Notes: generated by a model not told the origin, from the letters alone. Counted from the first letter of the stretch, positions 6,329-62,700 are shown. The stretch is DNA of 64,000 nucleotides from an uncultured Candidatus Saccharibacteria bacterium (GCA_964358005.1 CAYHNH010000002.1:18596-82595), one strand, 5' to 3'. Translations and numbers: made by a program.

Positions 6329-6739
6329 ATGACAGCCACAAAACACACCGGAAAATATTTCGAGGCAGTAGGGCGCAGGAAGACTTCGGTCGCTCGCGTG
6401 CGCCTTTTCCCGGCCAAGGAGCTTTCTTTCGAGGTGAACGGCAAGGAGCTCGCGGTATATTTCCCGACTCGAGAGATGCAGGCTACAGCACATGAGGCGA
6501 TCAAGAATGCCAAGCCGGCTGAAAAGTTCTTCATCTCCGCAAAGCTCTCCGGAGGCGGCATCGTCTCCCAGTCTGAAGCCCTCCGTCACGGCATCGCTCG
6601 CGCTCTCCTCGTATACGATATACAGCTTCGCGGCACCCTGAAGAAAGCAGGTTTCCTCTCTCGAGATGCCCGCGCCAAGGAACGCAGAAAGTTCGGTCTG
6701 AAGAAGGCACGTAAGTCTCCGCAGTGGGCAAAACGTTAG
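6329..6739 (+). CDS. rpsI: 30S ribosomal protein S9
   Basis: 136 aa with an S9 C-terminus (GGGIVSQSEALRHGIARALL...ARKSPQWAKR). Confidence 0.92.
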   Translation: MTATKHTGKYFEAVGRRKTSVARVRLFPAKELSFEVNGKELAVYFPTREMQATAHEAIKNAKPAEKFFISAKLSGGGIVSQSEALRHGIARALLVYDIQLRGTLKKAGFLSRDARAKERRKFGLKKARKSPQWAKR

Positions 6740-6748
6740 GATCTAATA

Positions 6749-7306
6749 ATGAAAGAACACAAAAAGGACATCGAAAATAACGATCTCGATGACTCGGTTG
6801 TAGCCGAGGAGAATGCCGCAGAAGCCATAAAGAAGCTGCGCGAAAAGCTCAAGAAATGCGAAGCCGAGAAGATGGAATATCTGACCGGCTGGCAACGCGC
6901 CAAGGCTGACATGATAAATGCTCGCAAACGCGATGAGGCTGAGCGAGCAGAGTTCATCAAATTCTCAAACGAGCGCCTGATCGAGAGCCTCATACCTGTC
7001 CTCGAGAGCTTTGATCTAGCCATGGGCAATAAGGTGGCCTGGGAAAAGGCCGACAAGAACTGGCGTGTTGGGGTCGAGTATATCTATTCACAGCTAAAGA
7101 AGGCTTTGGCTGATTCGGGCCTGGAGGAGATTGACCCTATCGGAAAAGCATTTGACCACAGCCGTGACGAAGCGGCTGAATACGTGCCTGCTGAAAAAGA
7201 GGCAGACCATCATAAGATCATTGCTGTGATTCAAAAGGGGTATGTCCTGAATGGGAAAGCTCTAAGGCCACCGAAGGTGAGAGTGGGGGAGTTTAAGACT
7301 CTTTAA
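6749..7306 (+). CDS. grpE: nucleotide exchange factor GrpE
   Basis: 185 aa with a coiled-coil N-terminus and the GrpE C-terminal domain (ESLIPVLESFDLAM...PIGKAFDHSRDEAAEYVPAEKEADHHKIIAVIQKGYVLNGKALRPPKVRV). Confidence 0.9.
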   Translation: MKEHKKDIENNDLDDSVVAEENAAEAIKKLREKLKKCEAEKMEYLTGWQRAKADMINARKRDEAERAEFIKFSNERLIESLIPVLESFDLAMGNKVAWEKADKNWRVGVEYIYSQLKKALADSGLEEIDPIGKAFDHSRDEAAEYVPAEKEADHHKIIAVIQKGYVLNGKALRPPKVRVGEFKTL

Positions 7307-7574
7307 TCAGGATCTCATCTTTTATACCCAGGTGTTTGCTTATGGTATTAAGTTGGCGTGCCATTAGAACGATATTTTGATCTAAGACGTCTATTTTGTA
7401 GTCGATTCGGTTGAATCTAAGATCCATAGCGTCAAAACGACGATCTACAGCATCAAAGCGCTCATCGATCTTGTCGAATCTATCAAAGACGGACTGAAAG
7501 CTCTGGCCTATGTCGTCCATGCTCGTCTTAAATTCGGTCTTTGTAACGTAGTCTTGCATTTGTATTTGGTACAT
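7293..7574 (-). CDS. small coiled-coil protein (paralog of 44434..44694)
   Basis: 93 aa with heptad-like repeats (RFDKIDERFDAVDRRFDAMDLRFNRIDYKIDVL). It is followed by an AT-rich upstream region that shares a conserved block with the region upstream of the 44434..44694 gene. Confidence 0.55.
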   Translation of the reverse strand: MYQIQMQDYVTKTEFKTSMDDIGQSFQSVFDRFDKIDERFDAVDRRFDAMDLRFNRIDYKIDVLDQNIVLMARQLNTISKHLGIKDEILIKES

Positions 7575-7670
7575 TTTATTCCTATAAAATTAGTAATGCA
7601 ATAGTCTAGCAATATAGTAATGAAGAAACGTTCAAAAAAAGTTCAAATTTTAATGAATTTTTTGAAACCC

Positions 7671-7697
7671 TTGACTACCCAATACGTCTGATATAAT
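7671..7697 (+). promoter_or_regulatory. sigma70-like promoter (TTGACT, 15-nt spacer, TATAAT) ahead of the 7707 ORF and the dnaK locus
   Basis: TTGACT lies at 7671-7676 and TATAAT at 7692-7697. The ATG at 7707 is 9 nt downstream of the -10. Confidence 0.45.
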
Positions 7698-7706
7698 AGG
7701 AAAACA

Positions 7707-8030
7707 ATGCTTACCCCTTATTCACGCTCAAATTTCGTCGAAAAAGTCCTGACCGACCACTCCGGCCGCCAGTTCAGGGCGCTTTTCCTCGTTACGCTCG
7801 TAAATGGGGAAGTGAAGGGTCATCTCCTTTCCCTCAAGCCGATGCCGATGAAGACTCTTGCCATCGAGGGTGCTGTTTCTGATGGCTCTATCTGCCTGCC
7901 TTGCTGGACGACAGACTGCGAGATCGAGACTCCGTATGTCGCCTCATATGCACCAGTCATTTCTCCATACTTTAGCGAGCTCGACATTTTCCTATCTACA
8001 CAACCAACCAGGGCGCCTGCTTTTGCATAA
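7707..8030 (+). CDS. hypothetical protein
   Basis: 107-aa ORF directly downstream of a promoter-like element. No recognisable domain. Confidence 0.4.
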   Translation: MLTPYSRSNFVEKVLTDHSGRQFRALFLVTLVNGEVKGHLLSLKPMPMKTLAIEGAVSDGSICLPCWTTDCEIETPYVASYAPVISPYFSELDIFLSTQPTRAPAFA

Positions 8031-8040
8031 TATCCGCGCC

Positions 8041-42153: not shown

Positions 42154-43077
42154 ATGACAACAACTCATTCAGCCCGCGGCTTAGTTTGGATAGATATGCA
42201 GTCCCCCACCGAGGACGAGGTGAGCGGCCTGATCAAGCGCTACGGCCTCCATCCGCTCGTGGGAGAGGAACTACGTAACTCCCCATCCCTGCCGAAGATA
42301 AGCATACAAAAGGACTACATACTGGTCGTGCTCATGTTGCCGGTGAGGATAAAGAAGAACGGCTCGCACTCCATAGTGAACCGAGAGGTGGACTTCGTCA
42401 TAGGCAAGAACTATCTCATTACCGCCCATCCGGACGGCCTCGAGCAGTTGGAATACTTCGCCCGGATATTCGAGACCAACGCTATACTCAACAAGGATTC
42501 CAAGATAGAGCACACTGGCCACCTATTTTATTACATGGTGAAGAGGCTCTATGCCGGCATGTACGAGGACCTGGAGAATCTCCGGGACACCTTGGCGCAC
42601 GCGGAGGAACAGGTATTCCTGGGCGAGGAGCGCAAGATGGTCCAGGCCCTGTCCAGCATATCGAGAGAGCTCATAGATTTCCGCGAGGCCATCAGGATAC
42701 ACCGCGACATTTGGGAGGAGCTCACGGCTTTTCCTGGCGAAACTCTGCTACCTGAGGACTTCAGGCCATATACCAGGGATATACGCGACGAATTCACCCG
42801 CATCAACGAACTCATACACAATTCCCGCGAGCTGGTCGGCGATCTCCGCGAGACAAATGACTCCCTCCTGAATTCTAAGCAAAATGAGATCATCAAGACC
42901 CTGACTCTCATGGCCTTTATGACCTTCCCACTGTCCCTCATCGCCGCCATCTTCGCCCTACCATCGAAGAATGTGCCCATTATCGGCGGCCAGTATGACT
43001 GGTTCGTCATTATCGGCATTATGGCCGTGGTCGCTGGCATACTGCTCTGGCAATTCAAGAGGAATAAATGGATATAA
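42154..43077 (+). CDS. CorA-like divalent cation transporter (MIT family) with degenerate GMN motif
   Basis: CorA cytoplasmic domain followed by two C-terminal TM helices. The position of the canonical YGMNF is occupied by FALPSKN, on a hand alignment. Confidence 0.65.
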   Translation: MTTTHSARGLVWIDMQSPTEDEVSGLIKRYGLHPLVGEELRNSPSLPKISIQKDYILVVLMLPVRIKKNGSHSIVNREVDFVIGKNYLITAHPDGLEQLEYFARIFETNAILNKDSKIEHTGHLFYYMVKRLYAGMYEDLENLRDTLAHAEEQVFLGEERKMVQALSSISRELIDFREAIRIHRDIWEELTAFPGETLLPEDFRPYTRDIRDEFTRINELIHNSRELVGDLRETNDSLLNSKQNEIIKTLTLMAFMTFPLSLIAAIFALPSKNVPIIGGQYDWFVIIGIMAVVAGILLWQFKRNKWI

Positions 43078-44417
43078 GCCTCTACAATACGCTCTCCAAG
43101 AAGAAAGAGACCGTAAAGCCTCTCAAGGCAGGCGCGATTTCGATGTACAACTGCGGCCCGACCGTCTATGACACTCCTCATATCGGCAATTACCGCACAT
43201 TCACCATGAGCGATATCTTGCGGCGTGTCTTCGAGTACAGCGGGTACAAGGTGACAGAGGTCATGAATGTGACCGATGTGGATGACAAGACCATAAAGAG
43301 GAGCCGCGCCGAGAATGTCTCGCTCGGGGATCTGACCAGAAAATACGAGAAGCTCTTCCTGTATGGTCTGGATTCGCTCAACATCGAGCTCCCCCACCAG
43401 CTCACCAGAGCTACGGAGCATGTCCAGGCTATGATAGACCTAGTTTCTGTCCTGCTCGAAAAGGGCGTCGCCTATAAAGCCGATGATGGCGTATATGTAG
43501 ACATCTCGAAGGTCAAGGGCTATGGCGCACTGGCGCATTTGGATGTAAAAGCGGCTGCGAGATCACGTGTAGCCAAAGACGAATACGACAAGGAGAACGC
43601 CCGCGACTTCGCCGTCTGGAAATTCAGGAGCGCAGATGACGGCGACGTATCATGGCCCGCTCCGTTCGGAGAAGGCCGACCGGGCTGGCACATAGAATGT
43701 TCAGCCATGTCCATGGAAGCTCTCGGACCGACGATAGACGTGCACACTGGGGGCAATGACCTGGTCTTCCCTCATCATACGAATGAGATAGCTCAGTCAG
43801 AGTCCGCTACCGGTAAGCAGTTCGTTCGCTATTGGGTGCATGGCGGCTTCATGAATGTGAGCGACGAGAAGATGGCCAAGTCGAAAGGTAATTTCATCAA
43901 GCTCGATACGCTGGCCGAGGAATCCATCTCGCCCGTAGCCTTTCGTTATTGGCTCATGACCGCGCATTATCGCTCCCCGGTGAATTTTACATTCGACAGC
44001 GTCAAGGCGGCCCAGAATGCGCTCATCAAATTCATGGCGGCTGTTGCTCTATTCCCTGATGGAGGCAACATCAATAAGGATTACCAGGGACGATTCCTGG
44101 CCTTCATAAACGACGATATGGACATGCCGAAGGCCATCGCCCTGTCCTGGGACCTCATCAATGATCCCGCAGTCGCGGCGGCCGACAAGCGCGCCACTTT
44201 GCTGGATTTCGATCGCGTCTTCGGCCTGAAGCTAGCCGAGGCCCCTAGATTCAAGGAGGAGCCCATCCCCACGGAGATACAGGCCCTAGCAGACGCCCGC
44301 GAAGAAGCTCGCAAGACCAAAGACTGGAAGAAGGCCGATGCCCTGCGTTCCGAGATCGAGGCGCGCGGATTTGACGTGGATGATACGCCGGAAGGACCGA
44401 GGATAATGGCCAAATAA
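43068..44417 (+). CDS. cysS: cysteine--tRNA ligase
   Basis: Class I aaRS with the HIGH-type motif (CGPTVYDTPHIGNYRT), zinc-binding residues, and KMSKS (KMAKSKGN). Confidence 0.9.
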   Translation: MDISLYNTLSKKKETVKPLKAGAISMYNCGPTVYDTPHIGNYRTFTMSDILRRVFEYSGYKVTEVMNVTDVDDKTIKRSRAENVSLGDLTRKYEKLFLYGLDSLNIELPHQLTRATEHVQAMIDLVSVLLEKGVAYKADDGVYVDISKVKGYGALAHLDVKAAARSRVAKDEYDKENARDFAVWKFRSADDGDVSWPAPFGEGRPGWHIECSAMSMEALGPTIDVHTGGNDLVFPHHTNEIAQSESATGKQFVRYWVHGGFMNVSDEKMAKSKGNFIKLDTLAEESISPVAFRYWLMTAHYRSPVNFTFDSVKAAQNALIKFMAAVALFPDGGNINKDYQGRFLAFINDDMDMPKAIALSWDLINDPAVAAADKRATLLDFDRVFGLKLAEAPRFKEEPIPTEIQALADAREEARKTKDWKKADALRSEIEARGFDVDDTPEGPRIMAK

Positions 44418-44433: not shown

Positions 44434-44694
44434 CTAGGCAAACTCCGTGCGATCGCGGAAGCGCATGGCGTCCCTGACTTCTGCTTTTACGTCCCCTATC
44501 TCATCAGACATATCCTGCCTACAGGCCTCTACCTTGTCCTCGGCGTCAGCTAGGCGGCTGCACAGCCTGGCCTCCACCATATCTATCCGCTCTTCAAGCC
44601 TTTCGAAGCTCCTGGATATGGATACAGCCACATCATCGCTGTTCTTATACATGAGTTTCTCTAATAATTCGACGTCCTTTTGGTCTAAAGCCAT
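44434..44694 (-). CDS. small coiled-coil protein (paralog of 7293..7574)
   Basis: 86 aa (SISRSFERLEERIDMVEARL...). It shares heptad pattern and sequence blocks with the 7293..7574 gene, and their upstream DNA is also conserved. Confidence 0.55.
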   Translation of the reverse strand: MALDQKDVELLEKLMYKNSDDVAVSISRSFERLEERIDMVEARLCSRLADAEDKVEACRQDMSDEIGDVKAEVRDAMRFRDRTEFA

Positions 44695-44837
44695 ATAATT
44701 GGGCTAATTTGCTTATAATCCTCTGACTGCAGTAACTCTAGCAATCCACAGTTCAAATTTGCTTCAAAAAAAGTTAAAATTATGATGAAGAAGTTCTAAA
44801 AATCTGTCGAAGATTTTATAAACAGCTTGTCCACCTA

Positions 44838-46292
44838 TTGATACATTTCCCGATGGACAGAGATTTTTCTGTTTATGCTAGAATCAAGTCTTCCAATATT
44901 GAAATTTTAATGAGTCCGATATCGCCATACGTCAAATCGAGAGATCTGAAGATACCTCCTCAGAGCCTCGACGCAGAAAAGGCCCTACTGGGGTCACTTC
45001 TTATTAGGGGTGAGACTATGCACGATATTGTCGACTCCGTCTCTGAGCAATCCTTCTATGCGACCCAGCACAAGATGGTCTGGTCTGCCCTTTTCGAACT
45101 TCATAGCAAGGGCACGCCCATAGACATACTATCCATATCAGCCCGTCTGAAGGACAAGGGCGCTCTGGAGCAGGTCGGCGGCATGTCTTACCTCACCGAG
45201 CTCATAAACATGGTGCCCTCCTCGACCAACGCCGGCCACTATGCCGAAATAGTCGAGAAAAAGCACGTCATGCGCGAGCTCCTGCGAGCCGCCGAGAACA
45301 TCACCGGCCTTGGCTATGACGAGGAGGCCGATCTTCACGATCTTCTCGAGAAGGCTGAGAAGGAGCTGTATTCGGTGACGAACAAGACCGGCTCGCACAA
45401 GTTCGTGGAGCTCAAGGATACGTTGACGGAGGCCTGGGACCGCCTCGATCATCTCCATAAGACACGCGATGAGCTGCGCGGCGTCCCCACCGGATTCTCC
45501 GATCTAGACAACAAGCTGGCCGGCTTTCAGAAGTCCGATCTCATCATCTTGGCCGCCAGGCCTTCCATGGGTAAGACTGCCCTGGCTCTCGACATCGCTA
45601 GGAGGGCCGCCATCAACCACAAGGTTCCTGTAGCTATATTTTCCCTAGAAATGAGCTCTCAACAGCTCGTAGATCGCATGCTTTCAGCAGAATCGCAGGT
45701 GGATGCCTGGAAGATACGCACTGGCCACAATCTATCCGTGGAAGGCGATTTTAAGGCCATTGGAGACGCTATAGGCAGGCTTTCCGAGGCTCCGATATTC
45801 ATCGACGACCAGCCCGGCAATAATATCCTCAAGATGCGCGCCGTGGCTCGCCGCCTCAAGAATGAGAAGAAGCTCGGGCTCATCATAGTTGACTATCTCC
45901 AGCTCATGGTCCCGACCCAGCAGGGCCGCTACAACGACAACCTGGTCCAGCAGGTCACGGAGATCTCCCGCTCGCTCAAGAACATGGCTCGAGAATTGGA
46001 GCTGCCTGTTTTGGCGTTGTCACAACTCTCTCGTGCCGTGGAGGCGCGCGGCGGCAAACCTCGACTTTCCGATCTGCGTGATTCAGGCTCTATCGAGCAG
46101 GATGCGGATGTTGTCATGTTCATCCACCGCGAGAATGCCGAGGATGGCGGCGGCCGCAAGCAAGAGGCCGAGATATTGATCGAGAAGCACCGCAATGGTC
46201 CCACCGGCGTTGCCAAGCTCTACTTCGATACCAAGAAGGCCACCTTCTTGCCGATGGACAAGGCTGATTTCGGAGATTTTGATAAGGCTTGA
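44838..46292 (+). CDS. dnaB: replicative DNA helicase DnaB
   Basis: N-terminal domain (PPQSLDAEKALLGSLL), Walker A (ARPSMGKTALAL), and RecA-like C-terminal motifs. The start is ambiguous among 44838, 44853 and 44910. Confidence 0.88.
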   Translation: MIHFPMDRDFSVYARIKSSNIEILMSPISPYVKSRDLKIPPQSLDAEKALLGSLLIRGETMHDIVDSVSEQSFYATQHKMVWSALFELHSKGTPIDILSISARLKDKGALEQVGGMSYLTELINMVPSSTNAGHYAEIVEKKHVMRELLRAAENITGLGYDEEADLHDLLEKAEKELYSVTNKTGSHKFVELKDTLTEAWDRLDHLHKTRDELRGVPTGFSDLDNKLAGFQKSDLIILAARPSMGKTALALDIARRAAINHKVPVAIFSLEMSSQQLVDRMLSAESQVDAWKIRTGHNLSVEGDFKAIGDAIGRLSEAPIFIDDQPGNNILKMRAVARRLKNEKKLGLIIVDYLQLMVPTQQGRYNDNLVQQVTEISRSLKNMARELELPVLALSQLSRAVEARGGKPRLSDLRDSGSIEQDADVVMFIHRENAEDGGGRKQEAEILIEKHRNGPTGVAKLYFDTKKATFLPMDKADFGDFDKA

Positions 46293-56178: not shown

Positions 56179-57792
56179 CTACGCTTTCCTAAATGGCTCC
56201 AATTCCACCACGAATGTCGAGCCCTTGCCTTCTCCGGCTGATTCCGCCCTTATGGTGCCATGATGTGCCTCCACCATCTGCTTGGCCACGAACAGTCCGA
56301 GTCCGGTGCCCTTGATGTTGACCTTGTTGGCATTGTTGGCTCGCGAGAATTTCTGGAAGAGATGCGGCAATATCTCCGGATCTATGCCTATGCCAGTGTC
56401 CTTGATCTCAAATATGATGACCTGCCTCTTGTGATCGAATGACAGAGTAACTGCAACCGAGCCGGAAGGCGTGTATTTCACCGAATTATCTACGAGGTTG
56501 GCTATGACCTGCTTCAGCTTGTCGCGGTCAGCGGTTATGCGGTAATCGGTACCGTTGTTCTCGGCAGCGAAACTGAAGTTCAAGCCCTTACCCTCAATGT
56601 TCGGCTTGAGCTCGGCTATGACGTCCTCGACCATGAGTTTGAGGTCAATGGTCTCGAATGTATATTTCATCGTTCCGAGCTCTATCCTGCTGATATTAAG
56701 GTAGTCGTTAACTATACTGACCAGTGTGTTCGTAGAATCAAATATGCGCTCTATGCCCTCCTTGGCCGCCGGCGGCAGTTCTCCCATGTCGCCTTCGAGC
56801 AATAGAGAGCCGTAACCCTTCATGGCCGTAAGCGGCGCGCGCAGCTGATGCGTAGCGAACGACACGAACTCTGACTTCTGCCTATCCAGCTCCGTGAGGC
56901 GCGTATTGGCCTTCTCCAGATCATCTGCCAGCTTTTGGATGCGTTCGCGTTGTTCAATCTCGTTAAACACATTCTTTACCAACCAAATTCCAAATATAAC
57001 AGTCAAAACAAGGATAACTCCACCAATAATTGCATCCTCAAAACTCTGTGCAAGTACAACCCTAAATAGTAAGGTTATCCAGATCGTTGCTGTCAGCAAT
57101 TGAGCTGTTATAACCCTAATATCAAACAGCTTATATTTTAAAATCGCATAGGCAATAATGAGTGGATAAAATGCAAATAATATCACTGGAAACGGTGGAA
57201 TCAGTACATTGAAGGTCAGAAGGAAAACACTACTACCACCTATAAATCCAGCTACCGATGAAAAAAGGATGTACTTAAGTCTGTGACCTTCCTCTTTTGA
57301 AACCTTCTTTATCTTTAATGATAGTAATATCAACGCAAAAATTACCGTCGCAAAAAAGTAAACAGTAAATGCAACATACAGCGGCCCTGCATTTGGTACA
57401 TAGGGCAAAGTTCCCTTAGAGAATACATCGGTAACAAATAATACAGAAGGCGTAACGGATGCAAAATATATAGCTATTATTCCAAAAACAAATAAAAAGG
57501 GCTTATATTTTTTTAATTCTTCAATAACAGTAATTATAAAAAACAAATAAAAAAATGGAATAAATGATGCACCGATATGTAAAATAATATCGCTTAAAAC
57601 TGCGGCTTCTTTACTTGAGGCTATTAGCATACTGTAATAACCAAAACTCCATATGCCTGTTGATATAGAGAGCAAAAGCCAAATTATGCTTTTAAGTTGC
57701 TTCGAGTTACTTAAAAAAACCAACAATCCAGAACCGAGAGCAACTAAACCACCTATAAAAAGAGACAAGCTATAGTATGTAAAGAAAAACAT
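56179..57792 (-). CDS. sensor histidine kinase with N-terminal 7TM receptor domain (orphan)
   Basis: 7 TM helices, a coiled-coil linker, a HisKA H-box (SFATHQLRAPL), and HATPase_c N/G1/G2 boxes. Confidence 0.85.
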   Translation of the reverse strand: MFFFTYYSLSLFIGGLVALGSGLLVFLSNSKQLKSIIWLLLSISTGIWSFGYYSMLIASSKEAAVLSDIILHIGASFIPFFYLFFIITVIEELKKYKPFLFVFGIIAIYFASVTPSVLFVTDVFSKGTLPYVPNAGPLYVAFTVYFFATVIFALILLSLKIKKVSKEEGHRLKYILFSSVAGFIGGSSVFLLTFNVLIPPFPVILFAFYPLIIAYAILKYKLFDIRVITAQLLTATIWITLLFRVVLAQSFEDAIIGGVILVLTVIFGIWLVKNVFNEIEQRERIQKLADDLEKANTRLTELDRQKSEFVSFATHQLRAPLTAMKGYGSLLLEGDMGELPPAAKEGIERIFDSTNTLVSIVNDYLNISRIELGTMKYTFETIDLKLMVEDVIAELKPNIEGKGLNFSFAAENNGTDYRITADRDKLKQVIANLVDNSVKYTPSGSVAVTLSFDHKRQVIIFEIKDTGIGIDPEILPHLFQKFSRANNANKVNIKGTGLGLFVAKQMVEAHHGTIRAESAGEGKGSTFVVELEPFRKA

Positions 57793-59545: not shown

Positions 59546-61255
59546 ATGACAATCACAATATATTCAATATTAAACTGGATAACAGGGCTGATTCTTATTT
59601 CGGTAGCCTTTGCCATATATTTTCCAAGTGATAAATCACTTTCCGCAAGACTTTGTTCATTACTTTCGCTGGTAACAGGAGTATGGAGCTTGTTTATAGC
59701 TTTATCAGTTTCCGCAAATGACCTTTTTGTTGGGCTTATATTGCTAAAATCATGTCACTTTCTTGGAACACTAATTGCATCAGTTTTTATATTATTTTCA
59801 CTATCATATCCTAGTACAAAAAAAATAAAACCCGGAATAATCGCTGCATTTGCCATTGCTGAATTTATATTTGTATATCTAATCTTTTTCACTGACACAA
59901 TAATTCTAAATTCTCTGCTTTTACCGAATTTAGAATACTTTGCCTGGGAGTATGGCTCATTGCAGATATTTTTTGATATTTACTTTATTTTTTGTTGGAT
60001 AATTGGAATATTTGTACTTTATAACAAATTAAAGAGCTGTAGGGACGTAGAAATTACCAAAAATCTACAACTCATGCTAATTGCATTCATAATAAGTATT
60101 ACACCACCAACCTTTCTTACAATACTTTTACCGCAACTCGGAATTTTTGATTATTATTGGCTAAGCCCACTCTCCTGCTTATTTTGGATTATTGTTATCT
60201 CATACTCAATAACACGACATCATCTATTTAGGATAAAGGTTGTTGCCGCACAATTGATTACCTTTGTTCTCTGGATATTTATCCTCATCAGGATATTACT
60301 GGCAACCAATCCAAAGGAAATCATTATTGAGGGCACACTTCTTGGAATTACAATTATATCTGGAGTGTTTCTCGTAAAAGCAGTATTAAAGGAAACAAGA
60401 CAAAGAGAGAAAATTGAGCAATTGGCAAACAAATTACAGGATGCCTACAGGATAACTAGTGACCTCAACCACACCCTCGAAGCCAAGGTTGCGGCGCAGA
60501 CAGTGGAGATACGCAAGGCTTACGAGGCCGAGAAGCACGCTCGCCTGGAGCTGGAGAAGCTCAACGATGCCAAGGACCAGTTCATAATGATAACCCAGCA
60601 TCATTTGAGGACTCCGGTCACAAGCATGCTCTGGGCCATAGAATCGTCGCTCCAGGGAGCCTACGGGAAGATGGGCGCGGCGCTTCGGTCCGTTCTCGAA
60701 GATGCCCAGACATCCGGAAAGCGTCTGATGAAGATAGTCGATGATTTCTTGAACATAACTGCCATAAAGATCGGCACTAACATCTTGAATATATCCAAAG
60801 TCAGTCTGAAACCGGCCATGGATGACATTCTGCTGGAATTGAAGGGCAGCATAGACAAAATGAGGCTCATGGTTTCGTTCCCTGCTGATGGTAATAGCTG
60901 GCCAGAACTGCCGGTAGATTACGACAAGATGCGCGAGAGTCTCTTCATAATCATGGAGAATGCCGTGAGATACAACGAGGAAGGCGGCTCTGTGAAGATA
61001 GCAACGTCCAGGCAGGAGGATCGATTCGTGATATCGGTGGAGAATACCGGTCTCGGCATATCCGGCGAGGAGTCGACAAGGATAGGCAACGCTCTGTTCT
61101 ACAGAGGTGACTATGCCAGGAAGGCCTACCCCATTGGCATGGGAATCGGGCTGTCTGTCGTAAAGGCGATCATCAGGGCCCATCATGGGACTTTCAGCAT
61201 CACCTCCGAGGGCAAAGGTAAGGGTGCCAAAGCGTCGGTCTCCCTTCCCATATGA
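59546..61255 (+). CDS. sensor histidine kinase with N-terminal 7TM receptor domain (orphan; paralog of 56179..57792)
   Basis: Same architecture as the 56179..57792 kinase: 7 TM helices, an H-box (ITQHHLRTPV), and HATPase_c. The two linker regions align (KYKLFDIRVITAQLL vs RHHLFRIKVVAAQLI). Confidence 0.85.
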   Translation: MTITIYSILNWITGLILISVAFAIYFPSDKSLSARLCSLLSLVTGVWSLFIALSVSANDLFVGLILLKSCHFLGTLIASVFILFSLSYPSTKKIKPGIIAAFAIAEFIFVYLIFFTDTIILNSLLLPNLEYFAWEYGSLQIFFDIYFIFCWIIGIFVLYNKLKSCRDVEITKNLQLMLIAFIISITPPTFLTILLPQLGIFDYYWLSPLSCLFWIIVISYSITRHHLFRIKVVAAQLITFVLWIFILIRILLATNPKEIIIEGTLLGITIISGVFLVKAVLKETRQREKIEQLANKLQDAYRITSDLNHTLEAKVAAQTVEIRKAYEAEKHARLELEKLNDAKDQFIMITQHHLRTPVTSMLWAIESSLQGAYGKMGAALRSVLEDAQTSGKRLMKIVDDFLNITAIKIGTNILNISKVSLKPAMDDILLELKGSIDKMRLMVSFPADGNSWPELPVDYDKMRESLFIIMENAVRYNEEGGSVKIATSRQEDRFVISVENTGLGISGEESTRIGNALFYRGDYARKAYPIGMGIGLSVVKAIIRAHHGTFSITSEGKGKGAKASVSLPI

Positions 61256-61794: not shown

Positions 61795-61926
61795 AATACG
61801 CGATAATACGCCCAAGAATGGCCGCGAATAAAATCTTCATTAAAATTTGAACTTTTCTTCATCGTTCCTTGAACCTTGTTGTTGTAGGATGGTGTTCGAT
61901 GATTTCATCACTGACGACAATCGGTA

Positions 61927-62700
61927 TCACGTTACTGGCGTTATCGGCGCTTTCCATTGGTATTTTGGCTGTTTTAGCGTACGGGATCTACTGGTCTCAC
62001 AAGGGGAAGTAGGAGCCGGCAAAGCGCGGATCCTGTCCATGACATAGTTGGCCTGAGCTTTGAAATCCTCAGCCGTCGGGACGACCGAGCTTTTGGCTAT
62101 GCCCCATACAGGCTCACCGAACGAGACTGACAGCTTGCAACGACCAAGGAATAGATCCGCGGGCGTAAGACCAAAAGTGCCACCAATGCGGACAGGTACT
62201 ATCGGCCTGCCGGTCGCGTATGAGAGATATGCCACGCCGCCCTTACCCTGTTGAATCGTGCCATCTGGAGTCGCTCGGCCTTCCGGGAAGATGCACAAGC
62301 TGCCCCCCTCGCGAAGTATGAGCTCGTGAGGAGCGAGCGACTTGGCATAGTCATGCAGGCCGACTTTGACCGCGTAAGCGCCCCAGATATTGAAGAAGGC
62401 TCCGCCATAGAAGCGCTGTCTCCAGCCGGCGCGCCTGTAGAACGCCTGTTCTCGCGAGGTATAGAAGATAGGCGAGAAGCGCGAGAAAAACGGCAGGCAT
62501 CCAGGCACCATGAATACATCCATCTCGCTCGAATGATTGCAGGCGAATATGGCATTGTGAGGGACTTTCTTGAGATTCTCTCTGCCCTTCATCTCCACGT
62601 GGCCGAATAGGACAAGGAGCAGGCGTGTCGGGACCCAGATGATCTGCTGGAGGAGCCACGGACTCACGAAATACCAGAGCTTGACCGATTTCATTTCCAA
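61927..62700 (-). CDS. plsC: 1-acyl-sn-glycerol-3-phosphate acyltransferase
   Basis: HX4D motif (CNHSSEMD) and the FPEGRATP block. Confidence 0.8.
   Translation of the reverse strand: MEMKSVKLWYFVSPWLLQQIIWVPTRLLLVLFGHVEMKGRENLKKVPHNAIFACNHSSEMDVFMVPGCLPFFSRFSPIFYTSREQAFYRRAGWRQRFYGGAFFNIWGAYAVKVGLHDYAKSLAPHELILREGGSLCIFPEGRATPDGTIQQGKGGVAYLSYATGRPIVPVRIGGTFGLTPADLFLGRCKLSVSFGEPVWGIAKSSVVPTAEDFKAQANYVMDRIRALPAPTSPCETSRSRTLKQPKYQWKAPITPVT

What the first reader, a model, noticed from the sequence alone, without database searches (positions are those of the whole stretch)
44434..44800. Second copy of the small coiled-coil gene with conserved upstream block (locus B, between cysS and dnaB)
This is the counterpart of locus A. 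The shared elements are at 44736-44744 and 44764-44800. The spacing from the TCTAGCAAT block to CAAAAAAAGTT is identical to locus A (19 nt). Conservation of non-coding sequence between two distant loci argues for a functional cis-element rather than chance.
Basis: seen in the sequence. Interest (0 to 1): 0.5.

Follow-up and report, generated by a model that had tools for sequence, protein, structure and literature searches.

The report
Phased-repeat activator promoter, three copies
The shared "upstream block" is real: it is the core of a special promoter, built from 4-5 short repeats one DNA turn apart plus a -10 box, that marks a previously undescribed gene set (a small helical protein plus DNA-uptake, pilus and toxin genes) across the uncultivated Paceibacteria.

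Summary
TCTAGCAAT lies at 44737-44745 and 7605-7613. CAAAAAAAGTT lies at 44765 and 7633. The gap is 19 nt in both loci. A third copy sits at 61836-61890.

The two small genes are not demonstrable paralogues (hhalign probability 3%). Gene B belongs to a conserved Paceibacteria family that keeps the order cysS, B, dnaB.

The block is the visible part of a promoter. It has 4-5 units TT[C/T/G]ANN at an exact 11-bp period. The last unit ends 9-10 nt before an extended -10 (TGnTAnnnT), and there is no usable -35.

The same architecture precedes B orthologues in 54 of 80 genomes. Counts were 84 hits against 3-5 in shuffles. It also precedes PilB/ComGA-type ATPases, a pilin, DprA, ComM, PemK-type toxins, DUF3800 proteins and tiny membrane peptides. 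It also occurs in frame inside a comEC ORF. Many of these are leaderless mRNAs.

A conserved orphan OmpR/PhoB-family response regulator gene sits next to such an array in 7 of 7 genomes inspected.

Best reading: a pho-box-like, activator-dependent promoter defining a DNA-uptake and pilus regulon. The regulator's identity is inferred, not shown.

The parts
44434..44694 (-). Small gene B, 86 aa. Member of a conserved Paceibacteria family with the invariant core DDVAVSISRSFERLEERID. Predicted as one short helix plus one long helix.
   Evidence: ORF. 190 homologues. Alignment A1. Synteny cysS-B-dnaB. AF2 pLDDT 95, helices 5-17 and 19-85. No Pfam or NCBIfam family above cut-off.
44735..44743 (-). 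Extended -10 of the gene B promoter: TGcTAGAGT, with hexamer TAGAGT at 44735-44740. The inferred transcription start is near 44728.
   Evidence: Across 57 aligned promoters T is 67% and G 63% at the TG positions, and the hexamer reads TA(t/g)(a/g)(g)T. The start position is inferred from the fixed 6-nt distance to a conserved +1 motif or ATG in related promoters.
44751..44800 (-). Array of five direct-repeat units at an exact 11-bp period: TTTAGA 44795-44800, TTCATC 44784-44789, TTTAAC 44773-44778, TTGAAG 44762-44767, TTGAAC 44751-44756. The last unit ends 10 nt before the -10.
7293..7574 (-). Small gene A, 93 aa, with heptad repeats DxRFDxΦ. It is not a demonstrable homologue of B.
7603..7657 (-). 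Locus A promoter. Units TTCATT 7652-7657, TTGAAC 7641-7646, TTGAAC 7630-7635, TTCATT 7619-7624, then N10 and TGcTAGACT (7603-7611).
61836..61890 (+). Third copy, site C. Units TTCATT 61836-61841, TTGAAC 61847-61852, TTCATC 61858-61863, TTGAAC 61869-61874, then N10 and TAGGAT 61885-61890. It fires rightwards between two convergent genes.
61899..62012 (+). Candidate leaderless ORF driven by site C: 37-aa membrane peptide MISSLTTIGITLLALSALSIGILAVLAYGIYWSHKGK. Its ATG lies 8 nt after the -10. It is antisense to the 3' end of the acyltransferase gene (61927-62700 -).
   Evidence: Similar 35-49 aa transmembrane peptides follow arrays in L176 and L144. That it is coding is inferred only.
44816..44835 (-). 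DnaA-box-like pair GGTGGACAAGCTGTTTATAA just upstream of the array, on the dnaB side. It is not part of the array. It is listed because it shares the intergenic region.
44876..44884 (+). Probable dnaB promoter, extended -10 TGcTAGAAT, divergent from gene B.
   Evidence: Read. The same TGnTAnAAT precedes dnaB in L017, L018 and L019. Inference only.

Best explanation
The conserved block is the promoter of gene B. It is an activator-dependent promoter in which the -35 element is replaced by an array of 4-5 direct repeats. The unit consensus is (T/A)T(C/T)-TT[C/T/G]A[T/A/G][C/A], spaced exactly one helical turn (11 bp) apart. The last repeat ends 9-10 bp upstream of a weak extended -10 (TGnTA..GT).

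A transcription factor that binds head-to-tail along one face of the DNA is proposed to occupy the array. The most likely candidate is a conserved orphan OmpR/PhoB-family winged-helix response regulator. From the position where sigma region 4 would normally contact a -35 hexamer, it would recruit RNA polymerase, as PhoB does at pho boxes.

The same promoter type is used at loci A and C in this window. Across Paceibacteria it precedes genes for a PilB/ComGA-type ATPase, a pilin, DprA, ComM, PemK-like toxins, DUF3800 proteins and tiny membrane peptides, and it occurs in frame inside a comEC ORF. So it defines a co-regulated DNA-uptake, pilus and toxin regulon whose most constant member is gene B.

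Shown here: the architecture, its conservation, its specificity and the gene set behind it. Inferred: that it activates transcription, that the response regulator is the binder, and the physiological role.
For: 1. Architecture. Five units lie at exact 11-bp spacing, then N10, then TGcTAGAGT at B. A and C have the same layout.

2. Specificity. The regex for 3 units plus a -10 gives 84 hits in the window plus 80 orthologous loci (0.87 Mb), against 3-5 in block-shuffled sequence. The window has exactly three sites.

3. Conservation. 54 of 80 loci carrying a B orthologue (49-72% protein identity) have the array directly upstream.

4. Phase persists where it was not enforced. The fourth unit upstream shows T 100%, T 95%, A 89% at positions 1, 2 and 4. 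The fifth shows 74-81%. The seventh is at background.

5. The -10 and start site are supported independently. In non-B targets the first ATG lies 6-8 nt after the hexamer in 10 of 26 cases, 7 of them at exactly 6, which indicates leaderless mRNAs. In B promoters a conserved RTTA motif starts exactly 6 nt after the hexamer in 24 of 37.

6. No canonical -35/-10 pair was found for these promoters. The nearest TTGA-type units lie 10 and 21 nt from the -10.

7. Targets.
- T2SSE ATPase: L057, L069, L163, L189.
- N_methyl pilin: L048.
- DprA: L085.
- ChlI/Mg_chelatase ComM-type: L205.
- Inside comEC: L192.
- PemK: L022, L138, L170, L176.
- DUF3800: L088, L152.

8. Regulator candidate. A 229-aa Response_reg + Trans_reg_C protein has more than 100 orthologues at 55-71% identity in Paceibacterota. 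An array lies within about 150 nt of this gene in 7 of 7 genomes examined: L022 and L215-L220. In L220 the array-driven unit continues into a histidine-kinase gene.
Against: - No binding or expression data exist, and no response regulator is encoded in the 64-kb window. Its presence in this genome is therefore untested.
- The response regulator-array adjacency is one conserved syntenic unit (two arrangements), not seven independent events. It may only mean that the neighbouring transcript belongs to the regulon.
- One array precedes a tRNA-Met (L189). This fits a 'strong promoter' reading as well as a specific regulon.
- The metagenome scan was biased to one unit 'dialect' (TTTATC) and most of its 120 hits were simple tandem repeats. 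The target list is a sample, not a census.
- Within a genome the arrays are near-identical over 40-70 nt, spacers included. A degenerate binding site alone does not predict this.
- Two target assignments are weak. L200 has no Pfam or NCBIfam hit. The comEC case is an in-frame internal site.
Confidence: 0.62

Rival explanations
1. The array is a factor-independent upstream element. Helically phased T-tracts would give intrinsically bent DNA and/or alpha-CTD (UP-element-like) contacts that boost a weak extended -10 promoter, with no dedicated regulator.
For: Each unit carries a T-run, and the 11-bp phasing is what bent DNA needs. One array precedes a tRNA gene and another a pilin, both typically highly expressed.
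Against: - Positions that do nothing for bending are conserved: A at unit position 4 is 89-100% and C at position 6 about 60%.
- Arrays are absent from ribosomal-protein, rpoA, dnaK and other housekeeping promoters in the window and in 0.8 Mb of loci. Only 3 sites occur in 64 kb.
- Arrays sit where a -35 should be, not upstream of one.
- Arrays are linked to a response regulator gene in 7 of 7 genomes.
Confidence: 0.12
2. The array is bound by a different protein from the OmpR-family response regulator. Candidates are an uncharacterised Patescibacteria-specific factor, a LytTR-type regulator reading the 22-bp super-period, or gene B's own product in a feedback loop. It could also act as a repressor array that occludes the promoter.
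For: - In several genomes the units alternate in two flavours, giving a 22-bp repeat (L017, L033). This recalls the 21-22-bp spacing of ComE/AgrA sites.
- Gene B is the most constant target and often has the most units.
- REC-REC proteins without a DNA-binding domain lie just upstream of B in six loci.
Against: - No LytTR protein was found among 3,193 ORFs of the held loci.
- B is predicted to be a single long helix with no DNA-binding fold, and no homologue has a solved structure.
- The -10 is weak and lacks a -35, which argues for activation rather than repression.
Confidence: 0.18
3. The similarity is by descent only. A recent duplication, a mobile promoter cassette or gene conversion copied the same stretch to three places, and the shared sequence has no common regulatory meaning.
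For: Within one genome the arrays are nearly identical over 40-70 nt, including spacer bases. Examples are window A against C (21 nt exact), L091 against L216, and the pairs within L057 and L048.
Against: - The flanking coding sequences are unrelated.
- The architecture, not the exact sequence, is kept across genomes whose B proteins are only 49-72% identical.
- Orientation and distance to the -10 and to the gene start are fixed.
Confidence: 0.05
4. The repeats are replication-related: iterons or an origin next to dnaB with DnaA boxes.
For: 11/22-bp direct repeats lie next to DnaA-box-like motifs and the dnaB gene.
Against: Three copies occur in 64 kb, each pointing at a gene start with its own -10. 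The same arrays precede pilB, dprA and other genes far from dnaB. There is no GC-skew turning point at 44.8 kb.
Confidence: 0.02

Closest known systems
pho box / PhoB-dependent promoters of E. coli, and the PhoP core binding region of B. subtilis (TT(A/T/C)ACA repeats, 11-bp period, four or more copies). From established knowledge of these systems.
   Same: Direct repeats lie one helical turn apart. The array replaces the -35 and ends about 10 bp upstream of the -10. Several dimers' worth of sites are present. The candidate binder belongs to the same OmpR/PhoB winged-helix family (Trans_reg_C).
   Different: - The unit sequence differs: TT[C/T/G]A[T/A][C] against CTGTCAT or TTAACA.
- The targets are DNA-uptake, pilus, toxin and small-protein genes, not pst/phoA.
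- The response regulator is not a PhoB equivalog (162 bits against a cut-off of 296) and is an orphan with no adjacent kinase in most genomes.
- Many targets are leaderless.
CtrA (OmpR family) control of pilus and DNA-uptake genes (comEC, comM, dprA) in alphaproteobacteria, with sites TTAA-N7-TTAA. From knowledge; the CtrA network also appears in PMC6473078 (title and abstract as listed in the search output; the paper was not read).
   Same: A winged-helix response regulator, half-sites 11 bp apart, and a regulon that includes competence-type genes and pili.
   Different: There are no alphaproteobacterial cell-cycle targets. The arrays have 4-6 units rather than one bipartite site. The response regulator scores 168 bits against the CtrA cut-off of 350.
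Competence regulons with dedicated promoter codes: CRP-S/Sxy sites in gamma-proteobacteria (PMC1635313), ComE boxes and ComX cin-boxes in streptococci, and the ComK box in B. subtilis.
   Same: One distinctive promoter element marks DprA, ComM, ComEC, pilus or pseudopilus genes plus some toxin-type genes. Small, otherwise uncharacterised proteins belong to the set.
   Different: The motif, the geometry and the probable regulator family are unrelated. No ComK-box (A4-N5-T4) or palindromic CRP-type site is present.
CtsR operator (tandem heptads RGTCAAA-N3-RGTCAAA). Considered because locus A lies between grpE and dnaK and contains GTTCAAA-N4-GTTCAAA.
   Same: A direct heptad repeat near heat-shock genes.
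   Different: The period is 11, not 10. The resemblance is limited to this genome's version of the units and is absent from other genomes' arrays (TTTATC, TTCATC). The element points away from grpE/dnaK towards gene A.

Membership tests
Activator-dependent (pho-box-like) promoter read by an OmpR/PhoB-type response regulator | Direct repeats with a period of about one helical turn (10-11 bp) | tested here: met
   Units lie at exact 11-bp steps in A, B and C. Phase persists in units that the search did not enforce. 84 hits against 3-5 in shuffles.
Activator-dependent (pho-box-like) promoter read by an OmpR/PhoB-type response regulator | The array takes the place of the -35 and ends about 10 bp upstream of the -10 | tested here: met
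   The last unit is followed by N9 (46 cases) or N10 (21 cases), then TAnnnT. No -35/-10 pair at 16-18 nt was found for these promoters.
Activator-dependent (pho-box-like) promoter read by an OmpR/PhoB-type response regulator | A functional -10 and a transcription start at the predicted place | tested here: inconclusive
   Support is positional only: ATG 6-8 nt after the hexamer in 10 of 26 non-B targets, and a conserved +1 motif 6 nt after it in 24 of 37 B promoters. No transcript data are available.
Activator-dependent (pho-box-like) promoter read by an OmpR/PhoB-type response regulator | Physical binding of the response regulator to the repeats and dependence of transcription on it | not testable with these tools
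   Only association is shown. The response regulator gene is adjacent to an array in 7 of 7 genomes.
Activator-dependent (pho-box-like) promoter read by an OmpR/PhoB-type response regulator | The regulator is encoded in the same genome | tested here: inconclusive
   No receiver-domain protein is encoded in the 64-kb window. Two histidine kinases are. The rest of the genome was not available.
Pho regulon proper (PhoB/PhoR) | PhoB equivalog and phosphate-acquisition targets | tested here: not met
   The response regulator scores 162 bits against the TIGR02154 cut-off of 296. The targets are pilus, DNA-uptake, toxin and small-protein genes.
Sigma-70 UP element | An A/T-rich block at -40 to -60 directly upstream of a -35 hexamer | tested here: not met
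   There is no -35. The array reaches to -22. Non-A/T-tract positions are conserved.
Paralogous gene pair (A and B as copies of one gene) | Significant sequence similarity between the two products | tested here: not met
   BLASTP E=0.018 over 19 aa. hhalign probability 3%. 14 bits against the B profile. The homologue sets do not overlap.
CtsR operator / alphaproteobacterial LexA box (GTTC-N7-GTTC) / ComK box | The specific consensus is conserved at orthologous sites | tested here: not met
   GTTC-N7-GTTC and GTTCAAA-N4-GTTCAAA occur only in this genome's units. Orthologous arrays use TTTATC, TTCATC or TTGAGC.
LytTR-type (ComE/AgrA) sites | 9-bp direct repeats 21-22 bp apart, and a LytTR regulator | tested here: inconclusive
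   A 22-bp super-period is visible in L017 and L033.
Iterons / replication origin | A single locus per replicon with a skew inflection, not tied to gene starts | tested here: not met
   There are three copies in 64 kb, each with a -10 and a gene start. There is no skew turning point.

The most novel reading that the evidence does not exclude
Paceibacteria (candidate phyla radiation) carry a phylum-wide regulon with its own promoter code: arrays of 11-bp-phased TTNANC units in place of the -35. The regulon would be switched by a conserved orphan OmpR-family response regulator. It would co-induce the DNA-uptake and type IV pilus machinery, PemK-type and nuclease toxins, tiny membrane peptides and a universal 80-86-aa single-helix protein (gene B) that would be a new core component or feedback regulator of that programme. 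A start-site RNA beginning GGTTATGnGTCGACATAACC, next to the regulator gene, would also belong to the circuit.
Probability: 0.4. Interest if true: 0.75.

Novelty: new member of a known kind. Interest (0 to 1): 0.6.

Why it matters
Almost nothing is known about gene regulation in candidate phyla radiation bacteria. They cannot make nucleotides and are thought to live on DNA taken up through a pilus and ComEC machinery.

A recognisable promoter code would make that programme testable. It would allow its members to be listed in any genome from sequence alone. It would also point to one candidate regulator and to one unknown conserved small protein as the first things to test.

I found no description of this element in three full-text searches. 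That is absence from the held library, not proof of absence.

Tried and rejected
- Rfam (gathering threshold) and ARAGORN on the whole window: nothing.
- Pfam and NCBIfam for proteins A and B: only sub-threshold coiled-coil noise.
- PDB sequence search with the B profile: only coiled-coil noise, E>=0.085.
- Paralogy of A and B: rejected.
- CtsR, LexA (GTTC-N7-GTTC) and ComK-box readings: these were my first ideas from locus A. They were dropped once orthologous arrays showed different unit sequences.
- Origin or iteron reading: rejected.
- Canonical sigma-70 promoter: the scanner found no pair matching the conserved hexamers.
- Response regulator in the window: none.
- Orthology of the window's kinase with the kinase behind the response regulator in L220: not supported, 22% identity.
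- Metagenome pattern scan: most of the 120 hits were plain 11-mer tandem repeats, and about 16 loci held real arrays.
- L200, which I read by eye as a ComEC-type lactamase domain, has no Pfam or NCBIfam support. I do not count it.
- Rfam on the RNAs next to the response regulator gene: only tRNAs.

Full report
**1. What is at the coordinates**

The ORF 44434-44694 on the minus strand encodes 86 aa. It lies between cysS (43068-44417, tRNA-synt_1e, E=5e-102) and dnaB (DnaB and DnaB_C domains), convergent with the first and divergent from the second.

TCTAGCAAT is at 44737-44745 and 7605-7613. CAAAAAAAGTT is at 44765-44775 and 7633-7643.

The 9-mer alone is not unusual at one mismatch (13 found, 16 expected). 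The longer core AAAGTTMAAATTWTRATGAA is unusual: it occurs three times at up to three mismatches against 0.01 expected.

It shares 21 identical bases with locus A.

Exact-protein look-ups place the window in contigs from the Hainich H41 groundwater 0.1 µm fraction. All close relatives are Paceibacterota/Patescibacteria genomes assembled from metagenomes.

**2. The two small genes are not copies of one gene**

- BLASTP of A (7293-7574, 93 aa) against B finds 6 identities in 19 residues.
- A profile of 23 B-family members scores A at 14 bits.
- hhalign gives 3% probability.

B has 190 homologues in the word-indexed search and 224 cluster representatives in the exhaustive one. All are 50-160 aa, with an invariant DDVAVSISRSFERLEERID core. 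The order cysS, B, dnaB is kept in other genomes.

A has six weak hits of a different kind.

AlphaFold2 models B as a 13-residue helix followed by one 67-residue helix, mean pLDDT 95. No Pfam, NCBIfam or PDB relative passes threshold.

**3. What the block really is**

Read on the strand of gene B, the region is:

TTTAGA-N5-TTCATC-N5-TTTAAC-N5-TTGAAG-N5-TTGAAC-N10-TAGAGT

A TG lies one base before the hexamer. That makes five units at an exact 11-bp period followed by an extended -10.

Locus A has four in-phase units, N10 and TGcTAGACT. Site C has four units, N10 and TAGGAT, pointing rightwards.

CAAAAAAAGTT straddles two units. The identical 19-nt spacing therefore follows from the promoter geometry.

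**4. Conservation and specificity**

I fetched 80 loci from different species that encode a B relative. Nearly every Patescibacteria locus has the same layout upstream of the gene.

A regex for three units (TT[CTG]ANN, 4-6 nt spacers) plus N9-10 and TAnnnT hits 84 times in the window plus these loci. Five block-shuffled controls gave 3-5 hits.

54 of the 80 loci have a hit just upstream of B. The B copies in genomes labelled Verrucomicrobia that I read show a coding sequence instead of an array upstream; I did not tabulate the 26 loci without a hit by taxon.

Aligned on the last unit, the fourth unit upstream was not enforced by the search. It still shows T 100%, T 95% and A 89% at positions 1, 2 and 4. 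The fifth and sixth units decay, and the seventh is at background. Typical arrays therefore hold 4-6 units.

The -10 reads TA(t/g)(a/g)(g)T and is preceded by TG in about two thirds of cases.

No -35 hexamer lies at 16-18 nt. The neighbouring units are 9-10 and 20-21 nt away.

**5. Independent support for the -10 and start site**

Behind arrays that do not precede B, the first ATG lies 6-8 nt after the hexamer in 10 of 26 cases, 7 of them at exactly 6. These would be leaderless mRNAs.

In B promoters a conserved RTTA (ATTATTAG-like) motif begins exactly 6 nt after the hexamer in 24 of 37.

At window site C the ATG of a 37-aa membrane peptide lies 8 nt after TAGGAT.

**6. What else carries the element**

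In the genome loci, other arrays precede these genes:

- two T2SSE (PilB/ComGA-type) ATPases (L057, L069)
- an N-methyl pilin (L048)
- DprA (L085)
- a DUF3800 protein (L088)
- a PemK-like toxin (L022)
- an 86-aa unknown protein (L020)

A metagenome scan for one unit dialect (TTTATC x3 plus a -10) returned mostly plain tandem repeats, but about 16 real arrays. They precede:

- two more T2SSE ATPases (L163, L189)
- a ComM/YifB-type protein (L205)
- three more PemK-like toxins (L138, L170, L176)
- DUF3800 (L152)
- a PBECR1 nuclease-like protein (L132)
- RhuM (L111)
- 35-49 aa membrane peptides (L176, L144)
- a tRNA-Met (L189)
- one site lying in frame inside a comEC ORF (L192)

The set is strongly enriched for DNA-uptake and pilus functions. 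It also holds toxins and unknown proteins. The tRNA case is the main observation that does not fit a narrow regulon.

**7. Candidate regulator**

L022 encodes a full-length OmpR/PhoB-family response regulator flanked by arrays on both sides. It has more than 100 orthologues at 55-71% identity, with Paceibacterota, Taylorbacteria and Patescibacteria among the source names given. It is not an equivalog of any named regulator.

In six further genomes an array lies directly downstream of this gene. It is followed by a -10 and a conserved start sequence GGTTATGnGTCGACATAACC. In L220 the unit runs into a histidine-kinase gene.

That makes 7 of 7 genomes. It is one conserved neighbourhood in two arrangements, so it counts as association, not proof.

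The window itself encodes two histidine kinases near site C but no receiver domain.

**8. Mechanism**

OmpR/PhoB-type regulators bind head-to-tail to direct repeats one helical turn apart. At pho boxes the array replaces the -35 and ends about 10 bp from the -10 (established knowledge of PhoB and of B. subtilis PhoP). The geometry found here matches that on every point I could test.

I therefore read the element as a class-II-like, activator-dependent promoter, with moderate confidence (0.62).

The rivals are set out in the Rival explanations section:

- intrinsic bending or an UP-like element
- another binder, or a repressor array
- similarity by duplication only
- replication iterons

The first is weakened by conserved non-tract positions and by the absence of arrays from housekeeping promoters. 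The last is excluded by copy number, orientation and the lack of a skew change.

**9. Unexplained**

Arrays within one genome are near-identical over 40-70 nt, spacers included, yet differ between genomes. Either the binder reads the whole 11 bp and co-evolves with its sites, or promoters are copied or converted within genomes.

**10. Verdict**

The kind of element is known. This instance, its regulon and its phylum appear to be undescribed in the held literature.

Noticed in passing
L022 810-827 (-); L215 10759-10776; L216 10839-10856; L217 10855-10872; also L218, L219, L220 just downstream of the response regulator gene: The array-driven transcript next to the conserved OmpR-family response regulator gene starts with the near-palindrome GGTTATGnGTCGACATAACC in 7 of 7 genomes. 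There is no Rfam match and no consistent ORF. It could be a small RNA, or an operator at the start site. It is absent from the window.
   Followed up: partly
Leaders of B-family genes, L015-L094. Window 44705-44715 has a looser version, GGATTATAAGC.: A conserved motif, CATTATTAG(N)TAAC-like, lies 20-32 nt before the start codon in 29 of 80 loci, against 0.008 expected per 60 nt. It begins exactly at the predicted +1. It is also present in the Verrucomicrobia copies that lack arrays. So it belongs to the mRNA leader of this gene family, not to the promoter.
   Followed up: partly
window 44816-44835, and the equivalent position in many loci (for example L017, L020, L084): A pair of DnaA-box-like motifs, GTGGAcAAgcTGTGGAgA, lies between dnaB and gene B. 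18 of 80 loci have one, against 0.039 expected per 200 nt. This suggests DnaA control of the dnaB promoter.
   Followed up: partly
L018, L019, L017 upstream of dnaB; window 44876-44884: dnaB promoters look like GC-flanked extended -10 elements (GTGnTAnAAT). In L018 and L019 the ATG lies 6 nt downstream, so the mRNA is leaderless. In the window the likely dnaB start is the ATG at 44911 (MSPIS...), not the longer ORF starts at 44838 or 44853.
   Followed up: no
L192, array at minus-strand offset 6639-6682: A complete array plus TGCTAGACT lies in frame inside a continuous comEC ORF (...SFQLSFLATFALIYFSDFLYLFFIRILSPFARLW...). It may be an internal promoter for the distal part of ComEC.
   Followed up: partly
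L050, L061, L062, L063, L089, L093, just upstream of gene B: A 263-278 aa protein made of two receiver domains with no output domain is the upstream neighbour of B in six genomes. The array sits between the two genes.
   Followed up: partly
L038, L039, L042, L044, L046, L051-L053, L058, L066, L068, L070, L074, L077, L092; also L026 and L072: B-family genes also occur in genomes labelled Verrucomicrobia, and as second copies in some Patescibacteria. These copies have no array and follow a different conserved upstream gene (ending ...FWIITEADRxxTTVLLPxDY). This suggests spread on a mobile element.
   Followed up: no
window 7575-8040: The region between gene A and the DUF167-like gene and dnaK holds a 107-aa ORF (7707-8030). 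It has no family hit, but gene callers call it in four independent contigs. It is preceded by TTGACT-N15-TATAAT at about 7673-7699. Its status as a gene is unclear.
   Followed up: no
window 56179-57792 (-) and 59546-61255 (+): Two paralogous multi-pass histidine kinases (phmmer E=3e-54 to each other) lie within 5 kb of site C. No response regulator is encoded in the window.
   Followed up: partly
L189 5079-5225 and L194 101-250: An array precedes a tRNA-Met (CAT) gene in L189. In L194 it precedes a similar T-arm-like sequence that ARAGORN and Rfam do not call.
   Followed up: partly
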